From contig CAYGTV010000001.1 of assembly GCA_964353135.1 (NCBI GenBank), positions 87,138 through 151,137 on the forward strand: DNA of 64,000 nucleotides. The letters run 5' to 3'. The position numbers were made by a program, and so were the translations under genes. Shown here piece by piece: positions 46,901 through 59,537 of the stretch. The first letter of the stretch is position 1; the number at the start of each line of letters is the position of its first letter. Source of the stretch: an uncultured Candidatus Saccharibacteria bacterium. Lineage in GTDB: Bacteria; Patescibacteriota; Minisyncoccia; Phycocordibacterales; UBA918. The notes below the pieces were generated by a model that saw only the letters and a list, made by a program, of their open reading frames with translations, was not told the DNA's origin and did no database searches.

Positions 46901-47256
46901 GGTACCGCGTGTTTGTTGACTTTTCTGGTGATTTAGTGAATTCCTATGGTGACACAATCGCCAGCTTGGCAAGCACCAACGCTGCCCCCGCTACCTGGGA
47001 GTCACAGTGTACCGGTGCCACTACTGGCTGCTTTGGGTATCATGCTGGAGACAATTCACTCTATGATGGTTCGGTCCGTTTTGCCGTTGACAACTCATAC
47101 GCTGGTATTGAACCTGGGTTAGTTGAGGTTATGTCGAGTAACATCCCCGTGACGTTTGACGTGAGCGACATCATATATAGGACTCGGGTAGGGTTCTTGC
47201 AACCAGCGGGTGAGTACAATACTACGGTACGTTATATAGTAGTGCCTATATTCTAA
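40909..47256 (+). CDS. giant secreted/surface protein with internal repeat domains
   Basis: 2115 aa with an N-terminal signal/TM (FCSFVLVFTLLSADLFVVL). It has recurring blocks (TQ.NYHWRNDDG.ETGA.SATGG.ENTP and YCFR.TDAG.PL..YTNYPE) and is Thr/Ser/Gly/Asn-rich with little Cys. Confidence 0.7.
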   Translation: MASLMGNNARSWLYKFCSFVLVFTLLSADLFVVLERGFFIASQAEAAVGDFSVFRETTGTEVIAGTGNNVSWDTSVAASANIALQANTSDIDLADGGKYLVLYNSWTHEGSTGGANRRSVASYVAVNGSASEYGWGGGYIRDAENDFNAYNSGAAILDVTAGDDITVVLDRDDSNPGGGTAIRGGTNGVSILKLDDDLDYLRVHSSAGVSDISSNTSFNVVDWDTADEVDAGSFTFAAPASGVVVKGATDQKFLVTSNVKLNVTGGGGPRQNYEMRLTLDGVEVPGTRSTAYLRFDNGDVNSTLQYTGIIQKTSAADQTLAVEVRREGQAAATTAIVGDQTALAIAALPATAQVLSLTTTADESLTSAPSTMSFGSQLSTASSFLSHSTTTASDNIVVDTAGNYLVLATTYTSRISGNGRDVPRIDWRLDGSTQPYGGHGHYNRGDEGTEDTYTSGGSSGAIFPSLTSGQIIELAQSDETSGTPVSDFPAGRVAVQVVELSELIPQTSTDVSVNGSQVATLAPNTSNVNLGEQFVISENNGARNVTNITLSEDGTIAADTGLANIRLYYDLDTSAPYDCTSESYVGTENQFGATSTFSGADGSVSFTSSETISPTQSMCLYVVADVTASASDGQTVNVFIASPATDVVVTAGGTVSPVSSVGNSASTITDAEITQTNYHWRNDDGSETGATSATGGIENTPGLAFAAATPQRLRIGVAGEGTGTEVNSYRLEFAEKITTCDAATGWESVDTVGGAWDVFDSVNLIEGGNTTNIAEVDGGVSDGTGTFVTPNGGVRDATSQTAALSITADDFTELEYSIQATGAAIEGLAYCFRVTDAGSPLRAYTNYPEATLSADVTVAASGSYIASVVAGATDVYLGGQFIAVSNSGNHTLTEIILTEVGTLDAGQYLTNPRLYYEGDATNPRDCASESFDGLETIAAGTAFTDANGTTTFTVSSPVRTNESFCAYIVVDVADTAPDSETITFEISTPNTDLTIAGATIGPGSAVAPSGSVIVNAPSLTQGNYHWRNDDGTETGASSATGGVENTPMNGVLQESQRRLRLAVSNDGNADAVGTDLRLEYGTKVTTCENVGSWERVDTGVAFDMDVTSQLVQGNDTTDILEGDGGVNNPNTFLSPNSAQLETVDQLTLATLTNTQYIELEYALEITAASAFSATYCFRLTDAGVPLSTYTNYPELTIQDRQDFIVQRGTETVSGTGVTLTAGVDYVAPASNSAAFVRITNTSMTGAGSDTLGQTRVPEDVFAYIEGGDNLTTSFSIVRPPAATDNTRVSWEIVEYIGITGADNEFILRDAGTVTYGTSALFATGTPVVGIADDNDVVVFITGQYNPDGNVNNYNTGLSISSWDTTGDQPVFERGDADGVAARVSYAVVEFTGASWAVQRAQHTFTAAGVAETESITAVNSLLRTFVHAQKISGDELFNLDESGHEVWLSSIGAVSFQLENGATNPGQQTSVAWVVENTQIGDGSMMVYRSNGLIAQGGVQPITTVLGIGGTIRPSNASLWATNRSTGGGSAHPRALLGATILNETQYELWKSDEGQNQNFRVEIVEWPVAETSIRQAVYRLYADNDALTPTDPWPAGANDLGENTPMTDIDEPLGEGEQTRIRMSLFINNATLISDSTSFKLQYGRRVTTCSAVSTWDDVGPSGSGSVWRAVDATPVGGTELLGGASLLLSVSDVAGTYEENSPSAVNPNTVDIGEYVEYDWIVENNAAIQKSSYCFRMTESDGAVLDGYDVYPTVRTSGYTPVIENWRWYDDEGSLTPTVALAGENVAPSALQNGSEVKLRVSVTEVEGAPGENVKFNLQYSEYPDFRVASTVNATTSCDGNDLWCYVDGAGNDNQTLDATVLSGVDSCAAGVGNGCGTHNEAEGISGLYDQPAFSISEHEFTLRHDGARVNTVYYFRLFDATNGVPLFASTSFPSVTTEGAVLTFTVSGIDAGQTTEGIITDATTTASGVNFGSLTMDTDTEAAQRLTVFANGTQGYRVFVDFSGDLVNSYGDTIASLASTNAAPATWESQCTGATTGCFGYHAGDNSLYDGSVRFAVDNSYAGIEPGLVEVMSSNIPVTFDVSDIIYRTRVGFLQPAGEYNTTVRYIVVPIF

Positions 47257-47439: not shown

Positions 47440-47511
47440 TCCGACGTAGCTCAGCGGTAGAGCAGTTGACTGTTAATCAATTGGCCGCAGGTTCGAATCC
47501 TGCCGTCGGAG
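47440..47511 (+). tRNA. tRNA-Asn (anticodon GUU), no encoded CCA
   Basis: The cloverleaf was folded by hand. Acceptor TCCGACG/CGTCGGA, D-arm GCTC-AGCGGTA-GAGC, anticodon arm GTTGA-CTGTTAA-TCAAT, T-arm GCAGG-TTCGAAT-CCTGC and discriminator G. Confidence 0.85.
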
Positions 47512-47547
47512 CTTTTGTAAAGAATAGTTAAGAAAAGTCTAGTTTAG

Positions 47548-48003
47548 ATGCTAGGTTTTTCTTGTATACTGGTAAATATGGAAATTAGAAACTACAATCC
47601 AGAAACTGATTATCCAGGCATTGAAGCCCTTTTGAGTGCCGAGGGTACTTTTGGTGGTCAGTTTGATGAAGCTAGAGATACTAAAGAGCGAATCGATGCT
47701 TTAGAAAGTACCAAACCAGGTAGTGTTCTAGTAGCAGAAGAGGATGGAGAGATCCTGGGCACAGTGACGCTTTTTGAAGATGGTCGATCTGCTTGGCTCT
47801 ATAGGTTTGCAGTCCAGCAAGACAATGAGACTGAAATAACAAAGCTTCTCAATGAAAAAGCTCTTCAGACAATGAAAGATCGTGGACATACTCAAGTTTT
47901 AGTTTACGCTCCCACTGGCGATCGACACTTTGAAGACCGATACACTTCACTTGGTTTTAATAAAGGAGGTGATTACACTGCCTACTGGCAAGATATTGTA
48001 TGA
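47548..48003 (+). CDS. GNAT-family N-acetyltransferase
   Basis: Acetyl-CoA-binding core of a GNAT (ILGTVTL...AWLYRFAVQQD...). The protein is ~140 aa if started at the ATG at 47578. Confidence 0.55.
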   Translation: MLGFSCILVNMEIRNYNPETDYPGIEALLSAEGTFGGQFDEARDTKERIDALESTKPGSVLVAEEDGEILGTVTLFEDGRSAWLYRFAVQQDNETEITKLLNEKALQTMKDRGHTQVLVYAPTGDRHFEDRYTSLGFNKGGDYTAYWQDIV

Positions 48004-48139
48004 AATCAGAAAAATTAATCTGCAATAGTTCGAATATTACCTATGACAAGGGTTACATAGCTCTTTGGTGTAAAGAATATGATCTACCAGACACTGTAGA
48101 AATTGATGGTGATACACTGCTTAAGAAAGACCATTTAGT

Positions 48140-48802
48140 ATGACAGTAGATTCTGCCATAAAAACCGTCTGGGACTATATGCATATGAATCATCAGCTCA
48201 AGAAAGCTGATACAATTATGGCTTTGGGTAGCTACGATATTCGGGTAGCAGAACACGCTGCAAAGCTATGGCTGGATGGATGGGCACCGTATCTTGTGTG
48301 TGCAGGATCAGGAACTGTACATAGCAATTCAGCGGTCTGGCAGGGGTTTGTAGGTTCTACGGAAGCAGAAATTTTTGCAGATGTGGCTCGTAAAGCTGGT
48401 GTCCCAGATGATGTGATACTGATTGAAAATAAATCACAAAATACTGGTCAAAATTATGAGTTTACATTGAACCTGCTTAATGAGAAAAACTTAGATGTAA
48501 AAAGTATTATCGCAGTACAGAAACCTTTTATGGAACGACGTACGTATGCGACAGGTAAGGTCTGGCTGCCTGAAGATATTGAATTAATTGTAACTTCGCC
48601 AAATCTGTCCTTAGACGAATATCCTAACGAAATCATAAGTCAGAATAATCATTGGATACACAATATGATCGGAGATCTGCAGAGGGTGAAAGAATACCCA
48701 GCTAAAGGCTTCCAAATTCATCAAGATATTCCAGATGAAGTTTGGGAAGCGTTCGAATTTCTAGTCAAAGAAGGATATTCTGATAATTTGCTTAAAGATT
48801 AA
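48140..48802 (+). CDS. DUF218 (YdcF/ElyC-like) domain protein
   Basis: Pattern ...ADTIMALGS...LVCAGSG...VILIENKSQNTGQN... typical of DUF218. Confidence 0.55.
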   Translation: MTVDSAIKTVWDYMHMNHQLKKADTIMALGSYDIRVAEHAAKLWLDGWAPYLVCAGSGTVHSNSAVWQGFVGSTEAEIFADVARKAGVPDDVILIENKSQNTGQNYEFTLNLLNEKNLDVKSIIAVQKPFMERRTYATGKVWLPEDIELIVTSPNLSLDEYPNEIISQNNHWIHNMIGDLQRVKEYPAKGFQIHQDIPDEVWEAFEFLVKEGYSDNLLKD

Positions 48803-48804
48803 CT

Positions 48805-49458
48805 ATGACACCAGATAACAATGCATTAGAACGAACATATTTTATAGGTGGACCACCTAGAGTTGGTAAAACTACTTTGGCTTATAAACTGGCTGAGGAT
48901 ATAAGGGGGCACGTTGCAATGACAGATGCAATCCGCAATTCAGCTAAAAAAGTATGTGAAGACAAGGCAGGTCCGTTGTTTATGATCAATCACTACAATG
49001 AATTCAGTGAAGAGAAATGGCTGAACCGCTTTGCGAATAACCCTGATCAGGTTGTCAAAGATCAAATTAACGAATCGAAAGCCATTTGGCGTTCTGTTGT
49101 TTCGTTCTGCAATATGTTCTGTGAGGATAATGCCAATCATATTGTTGAAGGGGTAGCAGTTATGCCTGAACTAGTAGCCTCAATGGACAATAAGCCTGAT
49201 CACGTAGTTTTTGTTGGTAATACTAGCGAGCACCACGTTGAAACAATGTTGCAGTATGGAAAAGATAATCCTGAACAATGCTGGATGGCGTATCTGGGGT
49301 ACAGTGAGGACCGAATCAGAGCTTTTGCAAATTACGTTTTGCATATGAGTCAACATTTCAAAGATGAAGCTGATAAATATGGCTTTAGCTATGTGGAGCT
49401 TTCAGATGATAATTTCGAGCAATCGCTCCAAGAAGCGATTAACTCGCTAAAGAAGTAG
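48805..49458 (+). CDS. P-loop NTPase/kinase (AAA_33-like)
   Basis: Walker A IGGPPRVGKTTLA and a Walker B-like HIVEGVAV. Translationally coupled to the upstream gene. Confidence 0.55.
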   Translation: MTPDNNALERTYFIGGPPRVGKTTLAYKLAEDIRGHVAMTDAIRNSAKKVCEDKAGPLFMINHYNEFSEEKWLNRFANNPDQVVKDQINESKAIWRSVVSFCNMFCEDNANHIVEGVAVMPELVASMDNKPDHVVFVGNTSEHHVETMLQYGKDNPEQCWMAYLGYSEDRIRAFANYVLHMSQHFKDEADKYGFSYVELSDDNFEQSLQEAINSLKK

Positions 49459-49583
49459 GAGCGAGTATTTGTATATCAGACTCAATTGAACGCCAATTGA
49501 TTGTTCGAAAAGCTTCCAACTGGCAGAGCCTTTGTAAAGAAAAGTGAAGTAACACCCTGATGCTCCTTTAAAACTAGAGGGTT

Positions 49584-50369
49584 TTGTGCTTCAATTTATC
49601 GATGATTATTGATATTGGGTCAGGTCACCAACCACATCCTCAGGCAGATGTGCTGCTAGATATTCATGATGAGCATGGTTCTCATAGGTGGTCCAAAAAA
49701 TTACAATCTGACCGACCTACAGTCATCTACGAGGGGAAAACTTTTCCGTTTATTGATAATGCTTTTTTGTACTCTGTCTGTAAGCATGTACTGGAGCATG
49801 TAGATGACCCGGCACACTTTCTTAATGAGATCAGTAGGATTTCTACTGCAGGTTACATTGAAACACCATCAGAATTATCAGAATTGATATTTACACCTTA
49901 TGCACTGCACAAGTGGGTGGTTCACAAAAAGGGTGAGGTGCTCATTATAAAAAACAAAATTAATGCGAATGTTTCCAAATGTGGCAAGTTGTTTGACTAT
50001 CTCTGCGATAATGAACCCGGTTTTGATGAGTATTTCTACTTGAGCAGAAGACGTCTTTTTCTCACAGAATATTGGTGGACGGAAGCAGTATTGTTTGAAC
50101 TTGTTGAAGAAAATGACTCTACTTTTGAGAACTATAATGACGAACAAACACTTCTCAATATATCAGAAAGAAACAATGTTGATTATCAAATCGAAATACC
50201 TCCAGAGCACTTGAGTCAAAAACCCTCTGATATATTCCAAGAATTATCTAGGGTGCTCTGCTCACCGTGCTGCTCGAATAAGGTTGAGTATAAGGAAGAA
50301 TCATATCAATGCATCAAATGTGGTCATGTATACAAAAAAGACGGGAACCAGATCTTGTTTATTCAGTAG
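49584..50369 (+). CDS. class I SAM-dependent methyltransferase with a C-terminal zinc ribbon
   Basis: Motif I IIDIGSGHQP and a post-I acidic motif VLEHVDDP. C-terminal CSPCC...CIKCGH. The ORF-track start is a TTG at 49584; the ATG at 49602 is an alternative. Confidence 0.55.
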   Translation: MCFNLSMIIDIGSGHQPHPQADVLLDIHDEHGSHRWSKKLQSDRPTVIYEGKTFPFIDNAFLYSVCKHVLEHVDDPAHFLNEISRISTAGYIETPSELSELIFTPYALHKWVVHKKGEVLIIKNKINANVSKCGKLFDYLCDNEPGFDEYFYLSRRRLFLTEYWWTEAVLFELVEENDSTFENYNDEQTLLNISERNNVDYQIEIPPEHLSQKPSDIFQELSRVLCSPCCSNKVEYKEESYQCIKCGHVYKKDGNQILFIQ

Positions 50370-52614
50370 CCACTTTCAGTTGTTTGATGAATTTCTCAGC
50401 AACACTATCAATGTATTGAAAAATTTCTGTAAATGAACTCGATTCAGTGTGCGGGTTCCCAAGAGTAACACCCAACACCCTAAAACGATCTCTTTTGTCT
50501 GTGAGAAGCCTTTTGACATCAAAAATGTCAAAAGTGTGAATACAGATTATACCGTCTTGGTAAATTTCATCATGAATCATCTTGTTCAAGTCACTAATCA
50601 CTTTTGATTTCTCAGTAGAGCCAAGATCAATTTTATGCGTTGACACTGAAAACACCACGCTGTTTAACTCAACTTCGTTAAGTGTGCAAAAATATTTCGA
50701 TGTCTCTACTGACTTGTGCCAGCTCTTTGCGAGCTCATAACGATAGTCGACTAACTCACCAATACCCTTAGTTCCTAAATGCTTTATGAAAAACCAAAGT
50801 TTTAGACTGTCGAATGGTCGACTTCCCATAAACGGGGTTATTTGACCAAGATCGAACGAATCTTTTTTTATTGTGATATCTGTTGATTTGCTGAATAGAT
50901 CTGTATTTTCTATATCCTTAAATAAAACTGCACTAGCAGAATACGGTATACACAGGCCCTTGTGTGGATCAATTGAGATTGAATCTGCTCTTTCTATGCC
51001 TTTTATGCGCTCTCTGTGATTGTTGGAAAATATAAGTACCCCGCCATGACATGCGTCCACGTGGAGCCAAACTCTTTTTGTCTCGCAGATATCAGCTATT
51101 TTGTTAAAGTCCTCTATGGTTGTTGTTCTCGAATCACCAGCTTGGCTAACAACAGCGACAACTTTAGAGGTGACTCCGTTATCATACTGATTAATTTTTT
51201 CAACCAAGTCATCACAATCGATTCTATAGTCTTCGGAATTATTTACGTACACTATGTTGTCCTCTCCCATACCAAGCCACCAAAATGACGCAATATGCGA
51301 GTAGTGATAGAAGGTCTCAGATGCGACAATCAATATCGGCTTCAACTTGCTAGCGTTCAGGCCACTTTTACGAGAATCAGGAAAACTTTTGCACCTAGCT
51401 GCTAACAAAGCTGTTGCATTAGCTAGAGTACCGCCGGTCGTCATGATACCTCCAGCTTCTTGAGCTCTTTTTGGGAAACCACTTTTTACATCGTAGCCAA
51501 TGAGTTCCCGCAACCACTTTATAACTTGAATTTCTGCGAAGGTTGCCGAGGGACCACTTTTAGTTGTTGCAATTAAATTTTGATTAGTAAAATTTTCTAG
51601 TATTGAGGCAGATAGTGCTGCGATTGAATTCCCGGCATCTGGGAAAGCAAGATAGTTTGGATGAGCTTGGTGTATAGATGAACTGTAAATTTTATTGGTG
51701 TATTCTTTAAGAATTATACCCATTTCCTTACCTAATTCAGGAGCTGGTTCGTCAAAACCTCCGATCAACTCCTCCTCGGTTTTGTAATCGATTACTTTTT
51801 CTGGGTTTACAATAAACTCTACACCCATCTCAAGAGCTCTATAAAGAGCTTCAGTGCTTGATTGTGTAGTAGTTTTTCCTAAAAATTTATTTTTTATGTC
51901 AAAGATGCGCTTTGAGGTCAGTTCAGGCAGCTCCAAAAACGCCTTTGTTCTATCAATAAAAAGCCAATTTTCTTCAACAGATAAAATTCTTTTTGAAACT
52001 AGTTGATTGGTTACAGTGCCGAAAATATTTTCGATATAATTACTAGTTTCTTTTGAGTTTACAAATCCTAGCGACTCTTTGCCGCTGTTTAGAAGTAGGT
52101 TTATAATTTTTTCTTTTGTAAATTGATCGCTATTAGTAGACAAAAGTAGAAGAAGAACTACCGTTGAGAAAGCTTGAACTCGATCGAGTTCAAATTCCTT
52201 CATATCTCCAATTAACATCTGATTTGGTCCGGCCAATGCGCACAACCATTGTCTGTATTGATTAAAGCCCGACCAATCTAATGGACCTATTTGATCTACG
52301 ATTACCGAATCGTCCGTCTTTATATGGCCATATCCTCGTATAGATTTCTGCAACTCAAGCCAAGAAATGTATTCTCCTGCATATTGGAGATCTGGTACTA
52401 GCCCGTTTTCGTTATGATACTTCACAAACCACTTTTTAAATGAAGTCACTTCCTGCAGCGGTGCACTTTTGTGAAAAACACACATTAAATCAATATCGCT
52501 ATCCTTTCGCTGTTCTTTTCTTGCTCTCGAGCCAAATACTAGACAGTATTTTAAACTATCAGAAAAATGTTTCTCTGCTGCAACCTTTAAATCGTTTAAA
52601 ATTTTATCTGTCAT
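50359..52614 (-). CDS. fusion of a minimal nucleotidyltransferase (Pol-beta superfamily) with a PLP-dependent group II decarboxylase
   Basis: N-terminus ...YCLVFGSRARKEQRKDSDIDLMCVF has the GS...DxD NTase motif, followed by a helical region. The C-terminal ~480 aa has the PLP-Lys motif SISIDPHKGLCIPYSASAVLF (S-x-x-x-HK, typical of group II decarboxylases). Confidence 0.6.
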   Translation of the reverse strand: MTDKILNDLKVAAEKHFSDSLKYCLVFGSRARKEQRKDSDIDLMCVFHKSAPLQEVTSFKKWFVKYHNENGLVPDLQYAGEYISWLELQKSIRGYGHIKTDDSVIVDQIGPLDWSGFNQYRQWLCALAGPNQMLIGDMKEFELDRVQAFSTVVLLLLLSTNSDQFTKEKIINLLLNSGKESLGFVNSKETSNYIENIFGTVTNQLVSKRILSVEENWLFIDRTKAFLELPELTSKRIFDIKNKFLGKTTTQSSTEALYRALEMGVEFIVNPEKVIDYKTEEELIGGFDEPAPELGKEMGIILKEYTNKIYSSSIHQAHPNYLAFPDAGNSIAALSASILENFTNQNLIATTKSGPSATFAEIQVIKWLRELIGYDVKSGFPKRAQEAGGIMTTGGTLANATALLAARCKSFPDSRKSGLNASKLKPILIVASETFYHYSHIASFWWLGMGEDNIVYVNNSEDYRIDCDDLVEKINQYDNGVTSKVVAVVSQAGDSRTTTIEDFNKIADICETKRVWLHVDACHGGVLIFSNNHRERIKGIERADSISIDPHKGLCIPYSASAVLFKDIENTDLFSKSTDITIKKDSFDLGQITPFMGSRPFDSLKLWFFIKHLGTKGIGELVDYRYELAKSWHKSVETSKYFCTLNEVELNSVVFSVSTHKIDLGSTEKSKVISDLNKMIHDEIYQDGIICIHTFDIFDVKRLLTDKRDRFRVLGVTLGNPHTESSSFTEIFQYIDSVAEKFIKQLKVATE

Positions 52615-52616
52615 AT

Positions 52617-53447
52617 TTAACGAGTTAAAATATACTGATCCTGTGAGCTGAGATTCAGGTCATGAATCACTGAAAAATCTGTTTTAGTAAAACCGTCATA
52701 AGAATGCGCATCTGAACCGAAGACGAACTTACCGCCATATTTTAAGTATTCAATAAGAAAAGCCTGGTCGTTCGTTTTTAGCTGGCCAGTCTCGTACATA
52801 TTGTATTTCCACTGGTCATAAGAAGGATATTTTTTTCCATTGATTTCAAAATAAATATTATGGCCTGACTCCCATTCCGACTTAAATAAGTTAAGGATGT
52901 AGTGGATCTCCTCAGTGTTAAAGTTTTCAGAGAAATGTCCATGGATGGCTTGAAAGGGGTGTGCAAAAATATCAATACTTTTATTTTGGATAAGTGCCTT
53001 AATATTTTCCATCAAAAAACTTCGCTTTGATGCATTGTCATTATTGGTCCTTGAATACTCCTCTTGAAAACTTTCTGAATGAATTGCTCCAAGTAATATA
53101 TCGACACCAAATTTATCACTTTCTTTTCCGGTGATGCCTTGGGCTAATCTGAGAGATCCATCAATATTCACTTCAACTTCTAGTCCTGAGAATATATCAA
53201 TTTTATTTTTGTATCTATCTCTAAGACTGTTAATTTGGTTGAGATACTCTGAAAAAACCTCGTCGTCATCAAAAAAGACAGATTCTGTTCCGTCGGCGTT
53301 AAACCAGCCGCATGCATGATCTGTGATTATTATTGACTTAATTCTTAGCTGAATGGCTTGGGTGACCATTTCCTCTAGAGAGTTTTTACCGTCAGAAAAT
53401 TTACTATGTATCTGAACATCCTGCCTCTTTAGAAAGTCGTTTAACAT
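52617..53447 (-). CDS. PHP-domain phosphoesterase (HisK/CpsB-like)
   Basis: N-terminal IHSKFSDG...IIITDH metal-binding motifs of the PHP family. Confidence 0.6.
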   Translation of the reverse strand: MLNDFLKRQDVQIHSKFSDGKNSLEEMVTQAIQLRIKSIIITDHACGWFNADGTESVFFDDDEVFSEYLNQINSLRDRYKNKIDIFSGLEVEVNIDGSLRLAQGITGKESDKFGVDILLGAIHSESFQEEYSRTNNDNASKRSFLMENIKALIQNKSIDIFAHPFQAIHGHFSENFNTEEIHYILNLFKSEWESGHNIYFEINGKKYPSYDQWKYNMYETGQLKTNDQAFLIEYLKYGGKFVFGSDAHSYDGFTKTDFSVIHDLNLSSQDQYILTR

Positions 53448-53523
53448 ATAGATAATTTACCTTAATACAGTATTTAAACAAGAAACTTCAGCAAGTAGTT
53501 CTGAAATAGACTCCCAGTTTAAT

Positions 53524-53638
53524 GTTCGAAACTCATCCAGCTGAGAGAGCGAGCAGAAAAACCCTTATTTATAAGGGTTTTTCTTATGCTCGCGACGACG
53601 GAAGAACAATCTGGGAGATTGTTCTGTCAGGATTCGAA
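53524..53638 (+). repeat. repeat module copy 0 (degenerate)
   Basis: GTTCGAAACTCATCCAGCTGAGAGAGCGAGCA box, an AAAAACCCTTA-ttta-TAAGGGTTTTT terminator hairpin, a second hairpin GAACAATC-tggga-GATTGTTC, then GATTCGAA. Confidence 0.45.
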
Positions 53639-53704
53639 AAGCTTTTGAGGTAGATTCGACCAGAGGAAGAATATATCCAAAAGGTATACTGGTCATGTAA
53701 TGAC

Positions 53705-53726
53705 CGAAATTCCTGCCGTCGGAGCA
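53705..53726 (+). repeat. direct repeat of the tRNA-Asn 3' end (putative att-site copy)
   Basis: CGAAATTCCTGCCGTCGGAGCA versus the tRNA 3' end CGAATCCTGCCGTCGGAGCT. There is a 15/15 exact core and 19 of 21 positions matching with a 1-2 nt indel. Confidence 0.6.
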
Positions 53727-53796
53727 GACAAAAATACTCTTGTTTTGCAGGGGTATTTTTAGTTTAGATTCATACCCCGAAGACGACGGTTCGAAC
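53705..53796 (+). repeat. repeat module copy A
   Basis: Box (the tRNA-3'-like DR), an AAAAATACTCTTG-tttt-CAGGGGTATTTTT hairpin, then GGTTCGAAC at 53788. Confidence 0.5.
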
Positions 53797-53816
53797 TTTT
53801 GGTATGATTAGAATAT

Positions 53817-54353
53817 ATGAAAAAAGTCGTCGTCGGATCTAACAACCCTGTAAAACTCAAAACAACAAAAGAAGCATTTACTTTACGATTTCCAGAGGAA
53901 ACTTTTGAATACATTACTTTTTCCGCGCCATCAGGTGTCTCAGATCAACCCATGAGTTCAGAGGAAACTAAGAAAGGCGCTTTAAATCGTGCTTTGGCTT
54001 GCAAGCAGGAATATCCAGACGCTGATTATTATATTGGACTAGAGGGCGGTATTGAAGCGATAGAGGGGCAGTATTGGGTATCTGCTTGGATGTGTATAGT
54101 CGATGGAAACAAAAAACAAGGATTTGGAAGAACTAGTGCCTTTTTACTTCCTAGTCGGGTGTGTAAATTGATTGATCAAGGTGAAGAACTTGGTACCGCC
54201 ACTGACATTGCTTTTAATGAAGTTAATTCAAAACATAAAGGAGGTGCTGTAAGCGCTTTAACAGATGAACTTGTGACCCGAAAAGATTTTTATAGAGATG
54301 CTATTATTTTTGCCCTCATACCTTTCTGTAAAACAGAGTTATATAGCCAGTGA
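53817..54353 (+). CDS. YjjX-family non-canonical NTP pyrophosphatase (inosine/xanthosine triphosphatase-like)
   Basis: N-terminus KVVVGSNNPVKL and ...YYIGLEGGIE...WMCIVDG... match the NTPase_I-T family pattern. Confidence 0.55.
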   Translation: MKKVVVGSNNPVKLKTTKEAFTLRFPEETFEYITFSAPSGVSDQPMSSEETKKGALNRALACKQEYPDADYYIGLEGGIEAIEGQYWVSAWMCIVDGNKKQGFGRTSAFLLPSRVCKLIDQGEELGTATDIAFNEVNSKHKGGAVSALTDELVTRKDFYRDAIIFALIPFCKTELYSQ

Positions 54354-54362
54354 GTCGTTTTT

Positions 54363-54470
54363 CTATACAAAAGTTCGAACATCCTCCACCCAGCGGAGCA
54401 GTTAAAAATAACCTTATTTTATAGGGTTATTTTTTATTTAAATCTATACCCTTGAGGGCAATGTTCGAAC
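54363..54470 (+). repeat. repeat module copy B
   Basis: CTATACAAAAGTTCGAACATCCTCCACCCAGCGGAGCA box, an AAAAATAACCTTA-ttt-TAGGGTTATTTTTT hairpin, then GTTCGAAC at 54463. Confidence 0.55.
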
Positions 54471-54620
54471 TTCTAGTACGCGTGCCACAGATATGATGGT
54501 GAATTAATACCATATTCATTGAAAAAGAAATAAATCTGTGTCATTGTGCAGTCAGACAATCCTGTCTAAAACTGGCGGAATGCTAGTTCTTTCACATCTT
54601 ACGGAATGTAGGAGATACCA

Positions 54621-55619
54621 ATGAAACCGACGGCACAGAAGAACCAAAAACTTATTGCTCAATATCCATTTCTTAAAGAAATGATTACAGCACCATTCGA
54701 ACCCATTTCACCCGGTGTTTTTGAAAAAGATACAGTCTCTGACCTGACTATCAAATTCGAACGGGCGGATGCTCATCTGATGTACCGACATGGCAAAAAT
54801 ACAGGACTAGAGAGCCGTAATGGTTCATGCAGCTGGTCTATGCCGATGGAAGGTCCTCGCAAGGGTCAGGCTGGTAAACGTGGACATCTATTGTTCGCCG
54901 TCGACCACTCCGGTAAAGTCATCAACGAGCTTGATTGGCAGGAAGAAAAGCCGAAAGAACCTATCTTTGGCTATCATGCGCTTTGGGGCAAGAAGCTTGG
55001 ACCAGACCATTTCACTGAATGTCTTTATGACCAAGTGAAGTATCTTGTTTGGGTAACTGTTGAAGCTTGGCACGAGTTCATCAAAGGTTTTGAGGATACG
55101 CCATTTGGCGACTTCATTGACCGTACGATGACTGTAACCATCTACTCAGCCCCAGAGCAAGGGTTCAGCAAACTGAGTGACGAAGCGAACGTCTACGACC
55201 ATCTATGGCTGGATGATGACGTCATGATGCGTGGCTCAATGCGTAATGACCATGACATCTTGCGTATCAATGGAATGTTGACCGAGCTTTGTCACCAATT
55301 CAAGACCGACGTATACGACAATGGCATGCGAGACGTGGCAGACTCTCATCCGAAGCATCGTATTGCCGCTAGCGGTCAGTTTGGCCCTGTCGAGGTGCTG
55401 GTTGCTGAAATGTGTGGCTATGAACGTATCCAACTGGATACCGACACGTGTCGTATCACATTTCAAATTAGACCTGACGCAACTAAAGCATACGTTCTTG
55501 CTATGCAAGGTCGTTTGCCACAGCTACGTGAAATAGTTCGAACAGTCATTGAATATTGGAACTACCGCGAAGGTGGTCGTTCTGACTTTTCCTACAATCA
55601 AGAAGTTTGCGTAGGATAA
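54621..55619 (+). CDS. hypothetical protein (332 aa)
   Basis: A long ORF with RBS GGAGATACCAATG and no recognised motif. Confidence 0.45.
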   Translation: MKPTAQKNQKLIAQYPFLKEMITAPFEPISPGVFEKDTVSDLTIKFERADAHLMYRHGKNTGLESRNGSCSWSMPMEGPRKGQAGKRGHLLFAVDHSGKVINELDWQEEKPKEPIFGYHALWGKKLGPDHFTECLYDQVKYLVWVTVEAWHEFIKGFEDTPFGDFIDRTMTVTIYSAPEQGFSKLSDEANVYDHLWLDDDVMMRGSMRNDHDILRINGMLTELCHQFKTDVYDNGMRDVADSHPKHRIAASGQFGPVEVLVAEMCGYERIQLDTDTCRITFQIRPDATKAYVLAMQGRLPQLREIVRTVIEYWNYREGGRSDFSYNQEVCVG

Positions 55620-55635
55620 TTAGTTCACTTTAAGT

Positions 55636-55672
55636 AGCCGCCTTCCCTAATTTGGGTGGGCGGCTTTTTCTT
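55636..55672 (+). terminator. intrinsic terminator
   Basis: AGCCGCC-loop-GGCGGCT followed by TTTTTCTTTTT. Confidence 0.5.
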
Positions 55673-55675
55673 TTT

Positions 55676-55770
55676 CATAAAAAGTTCGAACATCCTCCAC
55701 CCAGCGGAGCAAAGAAAATACCCTTGTTTTTCAGGGGTATTTTTTGTTACCCTCGGATAGGATTCGAACC
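55676..55770 (+). repeat. repeat module copy C
   Basis: CATAAAAAGTTCGAACATCCTCCACCCAGCGGAGCA box, an AAAATACCCTTG-ttttt-CAGGGGTATTTTTT hairpin, then GATTCGAACC. Confidence 0.55.
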
Positions 55771-55975
55771 GGGTAGATATTTACATAGTAGTAAGTATAG
55801 GTATACTGCACTTATTGGTCCTACCTGTAGGAAAAAGACAGTCTGTCATAATCGCTGTTGGGGATGCTTGAGAAAGCAAACTGACGGACTGTTTCAATGC
55901 TGGCAACCGAAACATTATAATCGAGTTTTGGTTAGTTTGGTCTCCAACAGCTGCTCATGTATAAGGAGATGTGCG

Positions 55976-56293
55976 ATGCCGCTAAATAAAGCTGGACGCA
56001 AAATCCTTAAGCGTCTTCGCCAAAAACACACAGGCAGGGGTTCGCGATTGCGTGCCGGAAGATATCAGTACCTTCTTTGTCCTTTTCATTATGAAGGAAC
56101 TGCATCTTGGTGCATAGACCTAAAAACAGGTCGGCACTATTGCTTTGGGTGTCACCAGCGTGGTGATATCTGGAATCTTGCAACGAACCAACCGGAGTTG
56201 TTAGGTCAACCCAAACCAAGAGATAGAAGAGAAGTACTGCCGCCACTTCCAATGGTTGATGGATTGCCTCACGATGATGATGTTCCTTTTTGA
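55976..56293 (+). CDS. small CHC2-type zinc-finger protein (primase-like zinc-binding domain only)
   Basis: LLCPFHYEGTASWCIDLKTGRHYCFGCHQRGDIWNL matches the DnaG-type CHC2 zinc finger (CPFH-x-E-x-T-x-S...CFGCG). AAGGAG lies 7 nt upstream of the ATG. The ORF-track ORF starting at 55652 reads through repeat module C and is rejected. Confidence 0.5.
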   Translation: MPLNKAGRKILKRLRQKHTGRGSRLRAGRYQYLLCPFHYEGTASWCIDLKTGRHYCFGCHQRGDIWNLATNQPELLGQPKPRDRREVLPPLPMVDGLPHDDDVPF

Positions 56294-56312
56294 GAGGTTT
56301 AAAACGTTGTTT

Positions 56313-56340
56313 CCGCCCAGCTTTGTTGGGCGGCTTTCTT
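56313..56340 (+). terminator. intrinsic terminator
   Basis: CCGCCCA-gctttgt-TGGGCGG followed by CTTTCTTTC. Confidence 0.5.
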
Positions 56341-56349
56341 TCATTTGGA

Positions 56350-56466
56350 TACTGAAAAGGTTCGAACATCCTCCACCCAGCGGAGCAGTAAAAATCCTTG
56401 AAAGGGGATTTTTCTTTTGCTCTGACGGAGAAAGTGACAGGAGTCACTTTCGTTGGGATTCGAAAT
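56350..56466 (+). repeat. repeat module copy D
   Basis: TACTGAAAAGGTTCGAACATCCTCCACCCAGCGGAGCA box, an AAAAATCCTTG-aaa-GGGGATTTTTC hairpin, a second hairpin AAAGTGAC-agga-GTCACTTT, then GATTCGAAAT. Confidence 0.55.
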
Positions 56467-56494
56467 CTTCCAAAGCCTTTGATATACTAAAATT

Positions 56495-56917
56495 ATGAAT
56501 AGATATGTCTTATATTTTGTTTTGTTTGCAATTGCCGTGACAATTGTCGCAGCGTTACTTTCTACTGATAATGAAGAGCCCGAAGTGGAATCAGTACAAG
56601 AAAGCACACCTGCTTTAGGTGAAGATTTTGCTAATAACATTGCCGAATCTGGTCGAGAACTACGGATTACCTATGAACACACGAAGCCAGGTGAATATAG
56701 TGAAATCTTCGTTGCTTTTACTGCTGCACAGCCTGGTGAAGATGTACAAGTTACCTTGCTAGGACCGGATACTGAACCTAATGTACGAACAGTTACCGCA
56801 GATGAAAATGGTAATGTCTACGAAGTATTCACTATTTATCAATTTGGACAATATAACTTTGAAGTTATTCCTGCCGTTAGTGGTTCACGCTTTAGCTCCT
56901 CGATTATTGTTGAGTAG
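56495..56917 (+). CDS. secreted/membrane-anchored hypothetical protein
   Basis: N-terminal TM MNRYVLYFVLFAIAVTIVAALL, then a 110-aa soluble domain. Confidence 0.45.
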   Translation: MNRYVLYFVLFAIAVTIVAALLSTDNEEPEVESVQESTPALGEDFANNIAESGRELRITYEHTKPGEYSEIFVAFTAAQPGEDVQVTLLGPDTEPNVRTVTADENGNVYEVFTIYQFGQYNFEVIPAVSGSRFSSSIIVE

Positions 56918-56977
56918 ATCTGAATTTCCCCCGCCCAGTGGAGCAAGACATAAAAACACCCGCCGGGTGTTTTTATG
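56918..56977 (+). repeat. repeat module copy E (degenerate, lacks the GTTCGAAC head)
   Basis: GATCTGAATTTCCCCCGCCCAGTGGAGCA box, then an AAAAACACCCG-c-CGGGTGTTTTT terminator. Confidence 0.4.
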
Positions 56978-57034
56978 TGTGCAACTGTTTTGAGTCTTTG
57001 GTATACAGGCTACAATAAGGCTAAGGAGCACAGT

Positions 57035-57535
57035 ATGCAATTTAGCAAAAAAGACGTGGTTTTATACGGGGTATTAATGACGCTGGTTTTAGGTGTCTGC
57101 ACGATGGCAGTTCACGCCAGAATACAGCCTCCGGTCGCGACCCCGCTAGCTCTCTCAAACGCCAGATTGTCTAGTGATCCACTCGCGCAAACGCAACAAA
57201 TTAAAGCGGAAATTACCAAAGTATTTGCGCCCCTTGAGCCGGCCATACCAGGAGTAGTTGAAGCGATGATTCGGATTGCTGATTGTGAATCATATGGTGG
57301 GCCAGATGGCATGTTGATGCACGTTGGACCCGATGGTGAGCTCGTTGAAAACCCACGCTCATCAGCGACGGGAGTATTCCAGGTGTTGCTGTACACCCAT
57401 CGGGATGATTACGAAGCTCTGGGACTCGACCCGCGCAGTGTGCTTGATAACATCAAATTTGCCCGCAAGCTGGTTGAGCGACGGCATATACAAGGTGTAG
57501 ATCCATACGCAGATTGGGAATGCTCACCTGACTAA
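57035..57535 (+). CDS. secreted protein with an Rpf/transglycosylase-like muralytic domain
   Basis: Signal peptide MQFSKKDVVLYGVLMTLVLGVCTMAVHA. The C-terminal domain has DCES...GVFQVL...DWECS motifs resembling the transglycosylase-like domain (CES...GlQF...W..C). AAGGAG lies 6 nt upstream of the ATG. Confidence 0.5.
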   Translation: MQFSKKDVVLYGVLMTLVLGVCTMAVHARIQPPVATPLALSNARLSSDPLAQTQQIKAEITKVFAPLEPAIPGVVEAMIRIADCESYGGPDGMLMHVGPDGELVENPRSSATGVFQVLLYTHRDDYEALGLDPRSVLDNIKFARKLVERRHIQGVDPYADWECSPD

Positions 57536-57542
57536 AATCACA

Positions 57543-58868: not shown

Positions 58869-58976
58869 TTGTTCGTGAAAGAAACAAAGAAGTCGTGCGT
58901 CATAGAGGGCGGGAGGAATTGATGTTTGGAGGAACGTCTTGTCCTGAAATGTACAAAACAAAAATGGAAGAGAAGA

Positions 58977-59537
58977 ATGAAATATCGTCTAAAGGTAGTG
59001 CTATTCGTAGCTGCTGTTAATTTTGTAGCATCATGTGGAGCTTCAAATGTGACAGCAGACGACGAGTTACTTCCTGTGGTTGCAGAGGAATTGGTTGCAA
59101 TACCTTCTATGACAGCAGCACCAGTAAGCGCTACAAGCGTACCTGAGATGTTGTCTCACCCGCTTATGGTTTCAAATGAAAATCTCTCATCTGATCCAGG
59201 TGAGCAGGCTGTGCAAATTGCAACAATGCTCAGGGTTGTGTTTGAGCCACTGGAACCAAGCTTTCCAGGGGTTGTTGACAGAATTATTGATGTTGGAGAT
59301 TGTGAGTCTGGTTTGAACCAGCTTGAGCCAGATGGCAGGCTCAGGGTTAATCCCGATCCCAAATCCTCGGCTGGTGGAGCATTGCAAGTGCTGCTAAACA
59401 CACACAAACCTGACTATTTGCGGGTTGGATTAAATCCACGGGAAGCTCCAGACAATCTAATTTTCGGACGCTTCCTCGTTGAGCGCAAGCTACGCCAAGG
59501 TCGGCGTAACCCATTAGAAGACTGGGTATGTGCATAA
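58977..59537 (+). CDS. lipoprotein paralog with an Rpf/transglycosylase-like muralytic domain
   Basis: Lipobox FVASC after MKYRLKVVLFVAAVN. C-terminal DCES...GALQVL...DWVCA aligns with the 57035 protein (PGVV..II...DCES, VLL.TH..DY, LVER). The ATG at 58977 was chosen. Confidence 0.5.
   Translation: MKYRLKVVLFVAAVNFVASCGASNVTADDELLPVVAEELVAIPSMTAAPVSATSVPEMLSHPLMVSNENLSSDPGEQAVQIATMLRVVFEPLEPSFPGVVDRIIDVGDCESGLNQLEPDGRLRVNPDPKSSAGGALQVLLNTHKPDYLRVGLNPREAPDNLIFGRFLVERKLRQGRRNPLEDWVCA

What the first reader, a model, noticed from the sequence alone, without database searches (positions are those of the whole stretch)
53504..56977. Array of six repeat modules (conserved box, terminator hairpin, second hairpin, TTCGAA) partitioning single genes, in the manner of a cassette array
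Six copies of a ~100-130 nt composite element occur in 3.5 kb at 53524, 53705, 54363, 55676, 56350 and 56918. Copies B, C and D share an identical 27-nt box, GTTCGAACATCCTCCACCCAGCGGAGCA, preceded by an A-run. Each box is followed by an A-tract/stem-loop/T-tract hairpin of the family AAAATAYYCTTG...CAGGGGTATTTTT, then a short second hairpin of variable sequence, then GATTCGAA or GGTTCGAAC. Each module therefore starts and ends with the TTCGAA palindrome, an architecture loosely reminiscent of integron attC sites (inverse-core, variable middle, core). One plus-strand gene sits between each pair of consecutive modules: a YjjX NTPase, a 332-aa unknown, a CHC2 zinc finger, a secreted protein and an Rpf-like protein. 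Modules 0 and A flank an empty 200-nt slot. The box of copy A is not the common box. Instead it is a near-exact copy of the tRNA-Asn 3' end, linking the module family to a tRNA-targeting site-specific recombination site. Translating the box gives the same peptide (FEHPPPSGA) in three ORF-track ORFs, which is a repeat artefact rather than coding. I know of no described element with this composition. It could be a novel cassette/att-site array, serial integration scars, or a MITE-like terminator-bearing intergenic repeat.
Basis: seen in the sequence. Interest (0 to 1): 0.8.

Follow-up and report, generated by a model that had tools for sequence, protein, structure and literature searches.

The report
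Serine-recombinase cassette array at tRNA-Asn
Downstream of the only tRNA-Asn gene in this window, which comes from a tiny Patescibacteria (CPR) bacterium, lies a strain-variable stack of small inserted gene cassettes; their repeated boundary modules match the attachment sites of a family of large serine recombinases, so this is a gene-insertion hotspot and not an integron or an ordinary intergenic repeat.

Summary
The repeat array is real: three boxes are identical over 28 nt, and copy A carries an exact 15-nt copy of the tRNA-Asn 3' end. The cassette reading is right in spirit. In 50 related CPR loci the box always lies downstream of tRNA-Asn and on the same strand, and identical left flanks are joined to different right flanks across it. 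Two empty/filled site pairs show precise insertions straight after the tRNA's GGAGC. One of them is the window's own 6,038-bp insert.

On the minus strand the box encodes LRWVEDVRT, the C-terminus of a Patescibacteria large serine recombinase (LSR) whose gene runs across its own attachment site. A circular 10-kb LSR element carries the same box, terminator hairpin and GGTTC motif inside the 3' end of its LSR gene. Each module is therefore an attP-like junction: the right end of one insert joined to the left end of the next.

It is not an integron. The crossover lies at GGAGC, not TTCGAA. No LSR lies in the window, so whether these LSR-less single-gene cassettes are moved in trans is inferred, not shown. 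The "empty slot" is a conserved, covarying 140-nt structured element of unknown function. Closest analogues are SCC composite islands and tycheposons. I rate it a new variant of a known kind.

The parts
47440..47512 (+). tRNA-Asn (GTT). This is the primary attachment site (attB); insertions begin directly after its 3'-terminal GGAGC.
   Evidence: ARAGORN; Rfam tRNA at 76 bits; junction comparison with L068.
47513..53550 (.). A 6,038-bp insert that is absent from the related contig L068. GC is 0.381. It carries six genes (GNAT, DUF218, AAA ATPase, methyltransferase, nucleotidyltransferase-PLP decarboxylase fusion, PHP) and no recombinase.
   Evidence: Empty/filled comparison; Pfam; composition.
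53524..53550 (+). Box 0. A variant P arm (GTTCGAAACTCATCCAGCTGAGAGAGC) forming the right end of the 6-kb insert.
   Evidence: a similar variant occurs in L004.
53555..53584 (.). Terminator-type hairpin (14-bp perfect arms). In L068 and L069 the same hairpin follows the tRNA-Asn gene directly.
   Evidence: Inverted repeat I18.
53587..53727 (+). It holds an inverted tRNA-Asn 3'-end copy interrupted by a hairpin, two inner hairpins, and a direct tRNA 3'-end copy (copy A, 53711-53725). The GGAGC of copy A serves as an insertion point.
   Evidence: RNAalifold; covariation counts; covariance model R1 scores 149.8 bits at this position.
53726..54399 (+). Cassette 1. P' module 53726-53796 (terminator 53730-53760, GTTCGAAC 53789-53796), YjjX-type NTPase gene 53817-54353, box B 54373-54400.
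   Evidence: The P' module is 0.88-0.89 identical to two L068 modules that are followed by other genes.
54400..55710 (+). Cassette 2. P' module 54400-54470, 332-aa gene of unknown function 54621-55619, its own terminator at about 55637-55675, box C 55684-55711.
55711..56386 (+). Cassette 3. P' module 55711-55769, CHC2 zinc-finger gene 55976-56293, its own terminator 56313-56333, box D 56360-56387.
   Evidence: A homologous gene sits after a different box in L076.
56387..56944 (+). Cassette 4. P' module 56387-56465 (terminator plus inverted tRNA-like copy with hairpin, ending GGATTCGAA), 140-aa gene with an N-terminal hydrophobic segment 56495-56917, degenerate box E at about 56921-56944.
56945..57535 (+). 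Conserved right flank of the array. Terminator 56948-56978 and a 166/186-aa gene. It is shared with L068, where a canonical box precedes it.
   Evidence: blastn 56927-57536 against L068 5111-5721, 77% identity.

Best explanation
Region 47.5-56.9 kb is an insertion hotspot anchored at the 3' end of tRNA-Asn. It was built by site-specific recombination of a Patescibacteria family of large serine recombinases (LSRs).

**Parent elements.** In these elements the LSR gene reads across its own attP.
- The P arm is the 'box' (AAGTTCGAAC-N-TCCTCCACCCAGC). It mimics the T-arm and acceptor 3' strand of tRNA-Asn and encodes the LSR tail ..WVEDVRT.
- The crossover lies in the following (C)GGAGC.
- The P' arm is the last ~30 LSR codons. 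On the opposite strand these form an A-tract/hairpin/T-tract terminator and end at a GGTTCGA(A/G)C motif (the LEP/FEP codons).

**Integration.** Integration places P' (with a fresh terminator) behind the tRNA or behind an earlier box. It leaves the box at the distal end, where it mimics attB and can receive the next insert.

**The resulting array.** Repeated insertion gives tRNA-Asn, insert, box, insert, box and so on. In this window all inserts lack the LSR: one 6-kb insert and four single-gene cassettes, each with its own promoter.

**Shown:** the anchoring, orientation, shuffling at the box, precise insertions, and the overlap of LSR gene and att site.

**Inferred:** that the LSR catalysed these particular insertions, that LSR-less cassettes are moved in trans rather than being decayed elements, and that the post-box hairpins terminate transcription.
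For: 1. **Anchoring.** In 50 CPR loci carrying the box, 16 of 18 tRNAs found are tRNA-Asn. All lie upstream of the box and on the same strand, at 0.3-9 kb.
2. **Orientation and spacing.** An nhmmer box profile finds 85 boxes, all on one strand. The median spacing is 877 nt, and 18 of 34 intervals hold exactly one ORF.
3. **Shuffling.** Identical left flanks join three or more different right flanks across the box, and the reverse also occurs. The base 5' of TCCTCC travels with the left flank and the base 3' of GGAGC travels with the right flank. Cassette-order strings are mosaic.
4. **Empty/filled pairs.** L068 compared with the window shows a 6,038-bp insert directly after the tRNA's GGAGC. 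The flank identity is 94% and drops to background beyond the module. L076 compared with L019 shows a 529-bp single-gene insert. Only 3-6 nt are shared at the junctions.
5. **Coding on the minus strand.** The box on the minus strand reads LRWVEDVRT. The intact 583-aa LSR in L049 (Resolvase + Recombinase + Zn_ribbon_recom) runs through the box. P0001, 100% identical over the aligned 97% of the query, ends instead in LRRQDSNL.., which I read as the reverse translation of tRNA-Asn. The L062 LSR likewise ends inside the tRNA-Asn gene.
6. **Family-wide pattern.** Many of the 120 listed family members end at WLR followed by tRNA-encoded or box-like tails.
7. **Circular element.** L080 and L081 are circular permutations of one ~10-kb LSR element. 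The 3' end of its LSR gene carries box variant, terminator hairpin and GGTTC in the module's order.
8. **Integrated element.** L078 is an 11-kb integrated LSR element lying between a tRNA-Asn 3' end and a box variant.
9. **LSR remnants.** LSR C-terminal remnants lie to the right of boxes in several loci.
Against: - No LSR gene lies in the 64-kb window, and the rest of the genome could not be searched.
- The P' side of the 64 distinct junctions shows little sequence conservation beyond an A-rich tract and a hairpin. Known LSR att sites need both half-sites.
- The conserved GTTCGAAC at the outer end of P' lies 55-75 nt from the crossover, farther than a normal ~25-bp LSR half-site.
- No small circular cassette was found among the retrieved contigs.
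- The loci were retrieved through the exact box, so box conservation is partly by construction.
- No recombination was observed directly.
Confidence: 0.72

Rival explanations
1. The boxes serve only as short homology anchors. Cassettes would be swapped by RecA-dependent recombination after natural transformation, and the LSR link would be historical: the boxes are dead scars of old integrations.
For: - The boxes are 28-30 nt identical, and the flanks shuffle exactly there.
- The cassettes lack recombinases.
- The P' sides are not conserved in sequence.
- From my own knowledge, CPR bacteria are thought to be naturally competent.
Against: - The primary insertions join tRNA-Asn (..CGTCGGAGC) to P arms that share only 3-6 nt with it. 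That is too little identity for homologous recombination.
- The same LSR gene is fused to either tail, with the switch right after the WLR codons.
- All 85 boxes are co-oriented.
- This route may still add to the shuffling between canonical boxes.
Confidence: 0.13
2. An integron or integron-like system. The modules would be attC-type sites recombined as folded single strands by a tyrosine integrase, with promoterless cassettes expressed from a common promoter.
For: - The modules fold end to end as single strands, with z-scores of -2.3 to -7.6.
- One gene sits between modules.
- The cassettes are shuffled between genomes.
Against: - No tyrosine recombinase was seen among the window ORFs scanned with Pfam or next to the related arrays. 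The recombinase physically overlapping the site is an LSR.
- GTTCGAAC does not fit the attC core GTTRRRY or its inverse RYYYAAC (read directly from the sequence).
- The cassettes have their own extended -10 promoters and terminators.
- The array starts at a tRNA gene, not at an attI site.
Confidence: 0.03
3. A REP/MITE-like intergenic repeat that carries a terminator. It would be spread by transposition or selected only for transcription termination.
For: - Each copy carries a bidirectional terminator-like hairpin.
- The modules form sequence subfamilies.
Against: - The repeat is confined to one locus in the 64 kb.
- In every related contig it lies downstream of tRNA-Asn and on the same strand.
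- The exact-box scan of 185,579 species genomes recovered five CPR loci, each with a single exact match; the other 26 hits were high-GC sequences unrelated to the element.
- Precise empty/filled sites exist at GGAGC.
Confidence: 0.03
4. The modules are tRNA-derived RNA genes (permuted or split tRNA-like RNAs, or tRNA pseudogenes), conserved for an RNA function.
For: - The box and its inverted partner reproduce the tRNA-Asn acceptor and T-stem pairings.
- The 140-nt element shows strong covariation: 24 of 40 pairs carry compensatory changes, against 11.7±1.9 in shuffles.
Against: - ARAGORN and Rfam find nothing there.
- G·T and A·C mismatches are equally frequent (24 versus 25). That argues against selection on one RNA strand.
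- The box is protein-coding in the parent elements.
- An RNA function would not explain the flank shuffling or the precise insertions.
Confidence: 0.06

Closest known systems
SCC / SCCmec composite islands of staphylococci (Ccr large serine recombinases, integration-site-sequence repeats at the 3' end of rlmH/orfX). This comparison rests on my own knowledge.
   Same: - An LSR inserts elements at the 3' end of a conserved housekeeping gene.
- Each insertion regenerates a target-like repeat, so elements stack in tandem.
- Many stacked units lack the recombinase ('pseudo-SCC') and are thought to be moved in trans.
   Different: - The target here is a tRNA gene.
- The LSR gene spans its own attP, so its C-terminus changes on integration.
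- The units are mostly 0.4-2 kb single genes.
- The junction carries a terminator and a quasi-palindromic module.
- The host is CPR/Patescibacteria.
Tycheposons and tRNA-proximal genomic islands of Prochlorococcus (bioRxiv 10.1101/2020.12.28.424599)
   Same: - Islands sit next to tRNA genes and are built by successive integrations that push older elements outward.
- Partial tRNA copies lie between elements, along with degraded remnants.
- A minority use LSRs.
- Replication genes (helicase/primase) accompany the integrase (compare the AAA_25 genes).
   Different: - 910 of 937 tycheposons use tyrosine recombinases.
- Their repeats are plain partial tRNAs, not a diverged box that also serves as an integrase C-terminus.
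- Arrays of single-gene, recombinase-less cassettes are not described in the passages I read.
Integrons (IntI tyrosine recombinase, attI, attC). This comparison rests on my own knowledge.
   Same: - Single-gene cassettes form directional arrays.
- Each cassette ends in a structured recombination site.
- Cassette content differs between close relatives.
- The recombinase acts in trans.
   Different: - The recombinase class differs (serine, not tyrosine).
- There is no attI/Pc platform.
- The cassettes are self-expressed.
- The site has a strongly conserved 28-nt arm rather than a conserved fold with variable sequence.
- The anchor is a tRNA gene.
Myxophage Mx8 intP/attP arrangement. This comparison rests on my own knowledge.
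   Same: attP lies inside the integrase gene, so integration into a tRNA gene changes the integrase C-terminus.
   Different: Mx8 Int is a tyrosine recombinase, and no cassette array forms.

Membership tests
Tandem array of LSR-integrated elements (SCC-like composite island) | A large serine recombinase (Resolvase + Recombinase + zinc ribbon domains) is physically linked to the repeat. | tested here: met
   The L049 and L062 LSRs overlap the box and the tRNA respectively, and 782 family members were found. This was met only in related loci: no LSR lies in this window.
Tandem array of LSR-integrated elements (SCC-like composite island) | Precise empty and filled alleles exist, with very short identity at the crossover. 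| tested here: met
   Window versus L068 (6,038 bp) and L019 versus L076 (529 bp). Both insertions start directly after GGAGC.
Tandem array of LSR-integrated elements (SCC-like composite island) | A free circular form carries the joined attP. | tested here: met
   L080 and L081 are circular permutations with terminal repeats and carry a module-like attP inside the 3' end of the LSR gene. This holds for an LSR-bearing element, not for the small cassettes.
Tandem array of LSR-integrated elements (SCC-like composite island) | Both att half-sites are recognisable around a central dinucleotide. | tested here: inconclusive
   The P arm is strongly conserved. The P' side shows only an A-tract and hairpin, with information of at most 1.1 bits per position.
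Tandem array of LSR-integrated elements (SCC-like composite island) | Recombinase-dependent integration and excision are demonstrated. | not testable with these tools
   This needs an in vitro or in vivo recombination assay.
Integron | An IntI-type tyrosine recombinase with attI lies next to the array. | tested here: not met
   Pfam scans of the window ORFs flanking the array show no tyrosine recombinase, and none was seen in the related loci. The array starts at tRNA-Asn.
Integron | attC sites carry RYYYAAC / GTTRRRY cores, and the cassettes are promoterless. | tested here: not met
   The module ends are GTTCGAAC (C at the first R position; read). Genes have TGGTATACT-type promoters placed 5-7 nt from the ATG, and their own terminators. 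The IntegronFinder attC model was not available.
REP/MITE-type dispersed intergenic repeat | Many copies are dispersed through the genome in both orientations. | tested here: not met
   There are 3 exact copies and 3 variant copies at a single locus in the 64 kb. All 85 boxes in the related loci are co-oriented. The whole genome of this organism was not available.
tRNA gene or pseudogene | A cloverleaf is detectable by ARAGORN or the Rfam tRNA model. | tested here: not met
   Only the tRNA-Asn at 47440-47512 is detected.
Tycheposon-type tRNA island | Integrase-bearing elements are flanked by a full tRNA and partial tRNA copies, stacked at one tRNA. | tested here: met
   The L062 and L078 elements lie between tRNA-Asn and box or tRNA-like repeats. 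Copy A is a partial tRNA-Asn copy. The resemblance is functional only; no homology to tycheposon genes was tested.

The most novel reading that the evidence does not exclude
CPR bacteria may carry an integron-like gene-capture system run by serine recombinases. Promoter-bearing single-gene cassettes without a recombinase would be excised and inserted in trans through the ~100-130-nt box/terminator module. That module would serve at once as att site, as integrase C-terminus and as transcription terminator. The covarying 140-nt tRNA-like element would act as a portable surrogate attB or accessory structure, so the platform can spread between classes (Paceibacteria, Saccharibacteria).
Probability: 0.3. 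Interest if true: 0.75.

Novelty: new variant of a known kind. Interest (0 to 1): 0.62.

Why it matters
**Gene flux in CPR.** CPR/Patescibacteria have very small genomes, and their routes of gene gain are poorly understood. I found no paper describing their integrative elements or attachment sites. This locus gives a concrete, testable mechanism: a single hotspot at tRNA-Asn where genes are added, lost and reshuffled one at a time between close relatives.

**Practical use.** The analysis yields a large LSR family with candidate attP and attB sequences. That is the information needed to build integration vectors for organisms that are very hard to manipulate, and it adds new candidates to the genome-engineering LSR toolbox.

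**Design features.** Several are unusual:
- an integrase gene that spans its own site;
- coding sequence that also acts as a terminator on the other strand;
- a box that mimics a tRNA end;
- a conserved structured element next to the site.

These features raise questions about how serine recombinases recognise their sites.

Tried and rejected
- **Rfam.** Gathering thresholds on the window, and E≤10 on 53.3-57.7 kb, found nothing but the tRNA.
- **Exact-protein look-up of the YjjX gene.** It is not on record.
- **Viral contig scan for the box.** No hits.
- **PADLOC on 10 cassette and insert proteins.** No convincing defence hit.
- **PDB sequence search for the 'Rpf-like' protein.** No hits.
- **Small circular cassettes among retrieved contigs.** None found; only the 10-kb LSR element is circular.
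- **TTCGAA as the crossover.** I considered and rejected this. The base three positions 3' of it segregates with the left flank, and the insertions start after GGAGC.
- **A second crossover at the module's distal GTTCGAAC.** I considered this because window/L068 identity ends there. I rejected it because the window's module A is as similar to a non-orthologous L068 module (0.88) as to the orthologous one (0.89).
- **Assembly chimeras at the box.** I judged these unlikely, because the repeat is only 28-30 nt. This is inference, not a test.
- **Strand test for the 140-nt element (G·T versus A·C).** Uninformative at 24 versus 25.

Full report

Yes. The 28-mer GTTCGAACATCCTCCACCCAGCGGAGCA occurs three times exactly (54373, 55684, 56360; + strand). 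No further match within three mismatches exists anywhere in the 64 kb, and none was expected by chance.

Copy A holds an exact 15-nt copy (TCCTGCCGTCGGAGC, 53711-53725) of the 3' end of the window's only tRNA, tRNA-Asn at 47440-47512. Copies 0 (53524-53550) and E (about 56921-56944) are diverged variants of the box.

Each box is followed by an A-tract/hairpin/T-tract. In copies 0, B, C and D there follows a second short hairpin and a TTCGAA. Twelve of the 28 TTCGAA sites in the window fall within 53.5-56.5 kb.

The gene calls are partly confirmed. NTPase_I-T (YjjX type) and a CHC2 zinc finger are supported. The 332-aa and 140-aa proteins have no Pfam hit. 'Rpf-like' is supported neither by Pfam nor by PDB sequence search. 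Rfam finds nothing in the region.

**2. Where else does the box occur?**

I scanned one genome per species (GTDB) for the last 19 nt of the box. The hits were chance matches in high-GC coding sequence plus five CPR/Patescibacteria loci: Paceibacterota, Parcubacteria, Saccharibacteria and one misbinned contig. All five also keep the upstream AAGTT(C/T)GAAC, which was not part of the pattern.

L019, a Paceibacterota MAG, is a relative of the window's organism. Its tRNA-Asn region is 97.6% identical and the sequence upstream is 82% identical. A metagenome scan added 45 more loci.

Across these loci ARAGORN finds 16 tRNA-Asn genes and only two other tRNAs. Every tRNA-Asn lies upstream of the box on the same strand, 0.3 to 9 kb away. 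A profile search finds 85 significant boxes, all on the same strand. The median spacing is 877 nt, and 18 of 34 intervals hold exactly one ORF of at least 70 aa. One contig (L061) has ten boxes in 8 kb.

The array structure is therefore a general property of this locus in these bacteria. A caveat applies: the loci were retrieved through the exact box, so the box's own conservation is partly by construction.

**3. The box is a recombination junction.**

In the metagenome contigs the same left flank is joined across the box to three or more unrelated right flanks, and the same right flank to different left flanks. Strings of gene clusters show mosaic cassette orders. The variable base just 5' of TCCTCC travels with the left flank. 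The base just 3' of GGAGC travels with the right flank. The exchange point therefore lies inside TCCTCCACCCAGCGGAGC and not at TTCGAA.

Two empty/filled pairs fix it further.
- **L068 versus the window.** In L068, tRNA-Asn ..CGTCGGAGC is followed directly by GAGCAGAAAAACCC... In the window a 6,038-bp segment (47513-53550, GC 0.381) sits exactly between these. It ends in box 0 (..CAGCTGAGAGAGC), and the sequence after it is 94% identical to L068 for 250 nt.
- **L076 versus L019.** L019 carries a 529-bp insert (promoter, one 144-aa gene, terminator, box) at the same point, where the L076-type locus has none.

The joined sequences share only 3-6 nt. This argues for site-specific rather than homologous recombination.

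The right edge of the array is also conserved. The gene after box E (56927-57536) and the gene beyond it match L068 (77% identity). Yet between the tRNA and that edge the window and L068 share no cassette, only the structured element described in section 8.

**4. The recombinase.**

On the minus strand the box reads LRWVEDVRT. In L049 a 583-aa ORF with Resolvase, Recombinase and zinc-ribbon domains (a large serine recombinase, LSR) runs through the box and stops in the variable left flank.

Database protein P0001 is 100% identical to it over the aligned 97% of the query but ends ..CPDWLRRQDSNL... I read RQDSNL as the reverse translation of the tRNA-Asn T-arm. A second LSR (L062, 35% identical) ends ..LLRRQDSNLRPID inside the tRNA-Asn gene itself.

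The family is large in Patescibacteria, with 782 hits at E≤1e-20. Many of the 120 listed members end at ..WLR followed by a stop, by tRNA-encoded tails of several kinds, or by box-like tails such as TVEAVRT, MLNEVRT and VLDEVRT.

The LSR gene thus spans its attachment site, and its tail switches at the L-R codons, that is, at (C)GGAGC. This agrees with the crossover mapped in section 3.

**5. The module equals attP.**

L080 and L081 are 100% identical circular permutations of one ~10-kb sequence, each with terminal repeats. This indicates a free circular LSR element. Read in box orientation, the 3' end of its LSR gene is: GTTCGAACAGCCTCAACAGTCCGGAGC, then cagttaggaattga, then the hairpin GGCGGCGaaaaCCGCC with a T-run, then about 30 nt, then GGTTC. 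All of it is coding (LEPGKDGYEQRKKAVFAASIPNWLRTVEAVRT).

That is the same order of parts as the window's modules: box, terminator-type hairpin, distal GGTTCGA motif. The KAVFAAS peptide is encoded by the hairpin, which on the other strand is a terminator facing the tRNA (read).

L078 shows an integrated 11-kb element carrying FtsK-like, HTH, methylase, ResIII helicase, AAA_25 and LSR genes. It lies between a tRNA-Asn 3' end and a box variant. LSR C-terminal remnants of 20-88 aa lie to the right of boxes in several other loci.

**6. Model.**

attP = P (box) - crossover in GGAGC - P' (LSR 3' end, which doubles as a terminator). attB = the 3' end of tRNA-Asn.

Integration leaves the tRNA intact and gives it a new terminator. 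It deposits the box at the far end of the insert, next to whatever previously followed the tRNA.

The box resembles the tRNA end (GTTCGAA..TCCT..C..CGGAGC), so it can be used again. At the junction right of one particular cassette (gene cluster c5), four alternative right neighbours occur, among them an LSR element (L049) and the native tRNA trailer (L062).

Internal junctions are therefore hybrids of one insert's P arm and the next insert's P' arm. In window coordinates:
- tRNA-Asn (47440-47512)
- 6-kb insert ending in box 0
- native trailer with the structured element and tRNA-end copy A
- YjjX cassette (53726-54399)
- 332-aa cassette (54400-55710)
- CHC2 cassette (55711-56386)
- 140-aa cassette (56387-56944)
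- conserved flank

**7. What is not shown.**

No LSR lies in the window (tblastn), and the rest of the genome is unknown. Among 64 distinct junctions the P' side is conserved only as an A-rich tract plus hairpin. This is atypical for LSR sites, which normally need two half-sites.

The distal GTTCGAAC of the modules lies 55-75 nt from the crossover. If the hairpins are discounted the distance is 23-32 nt, close to the 20 nt on the P side. That observation is suggestive only.

As single strands the modules fold end to end (z -2.3 to -7.6), largely because GTTCGAAC is self-complementary and the terminators are palindromes.

Two questions remain open. One is whether the LSR-less cassettes are mobilised in trans, as pseudo-SCC elements are thought to be, or are decayed elements reshuffled by other means. 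The other is how far homologous exchange between identical boxes contributes to the shuffling. It cannot explain the tRNA-to-box junctions.

**8. The 'empty slot'.**

The sequence 53587-53727 is a conserved element. An alignment of 17 distinct copies folds into a closed four-helix structure:
- the outer stem pairs an inverted copy of the tRNA-Asn 3' end with the direct copy (copy A);
- a T-stem-like helix follows;
- three hairpins complete the fold.

In total 94% of cells are paired against 81% in shuffles. Compensatory changes occur in 24 of 40 pairs against 11.7±1.9 in shuffles, and in 4-10 pairs in slid controls.

A covariance model finds 36 copies in 56 sources, all on the strand of the tRNA and box. 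Some lie directly after the tRNA-Asn terminator (L076, L069, L068, L052). Others lie after a box plus terminator. One locus holds up to four copies.

G·T and A·C mismatches are equally common (24 versus 25). A DNA-level palindrome is therefore at least as likely as an RNA. The element's terminal GGAGC is used as an insertion point. Its function is unexplained. A surrogate attB that supplies both half-sites, or an accessory site at the right end of tRNA-type elements, are my best guesses.

**9. Comparison and novelty.**

The system works like SCC/SCCmec composite islands: an LSR, a target at the 3' end of a conserved gene, target-like repeats between stacked units, and units without a recombinase. 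It also works like tycheposon-built tRNA islands of Prochlorococcus. It resembles integrons only in outcome.

It fails the integron membership tests: no IntI, no attC cores, and self-expressed cassettes.

Searches of the paper library found no description of LSR elements, tRNA-Asn arrays or this box in CPR bacteria. The library is incomplete.

I rate the finding a new variant of a known kind, with moderate to high interest. The main reasons are the compact att/terminator/C-terminus overlap, the single-gene cassette grain, the cross-class spread of an identical box, and the practical value of a defined LSR/att pair for CPR genetics.

Noticed in passing
L068 stored coordinates 4983-5256 (-); L078 3' end: In these relatives the tRNA-Asn gene is split in its anticodon loop by a group I intron (Rfam Intron_gpI, 85 bits). 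The LSR element in L078 sits next to the 3' exon. The window's own tRNA-Asn has no intron.
   Followed up: partly
window 53587-53727: A conserved ~140-nt element with a tRNA-like closed fold and strong covariation matches no Rfam family. It occurs in 36 copies across the related loci. Whether it acts as RNA or as DNA is undecided.
   Followed up: partly
window 40909-47256: A 2,115-aa ORF lies directly upstream of tRNA-Asn and has no Pfam hit. A fragment 72% identical lies at the same position in L059.
   Followed up: no
window 53800-53819, 56478-56497; L019 6770-6787: Cassette genes start 5-7 nt after TGGTATACT/TATGAT-type extended -10 boxes and have no Shine-Dalgarno sequence. This suggests leaderless mRNAs.
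   Followed up: no
L039, L055, L067, L070 (424-aa ORF left of a box): A reverse transcriptase (RVT_1) occurs as a cassette in several arrays, with different right neighbours.
   Followed up: partly
window 50359-52614 (-): A 751-aa fusion of a nucleotidyltransferase domain with a PLP-dependent decarboxylase lies inside the 6-kb insert. Its N-terminus hits the PADLOC candidate family PDC-S09.
   Followed up: no
window 58926-59537 and 56975-57535: These are two paralogous genes. One flanks the array and the other lies 1.4 kb further on.
   Followed up: no
L077/L078 (11-kb element), L049, L009, L032: The LSR elements carry an AAA_25/DnaB-like helicase. In L078 there is also an FtsK/SpoIIIE translocase and a methylase with a ResIII helicase. 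This gene set recalls actinomycete integrative conjugative elements.
   Followed up: no
protein hits P0003-P0118: Other members of the LSR family end in tails that look like reverse translations of other tRNAs' T-arms (DQDSNLEPTP, GLDSNQGPSR, GRDSNPRPMR). Sister lineages may therefore target different tRNA genes.
   Followed up: no
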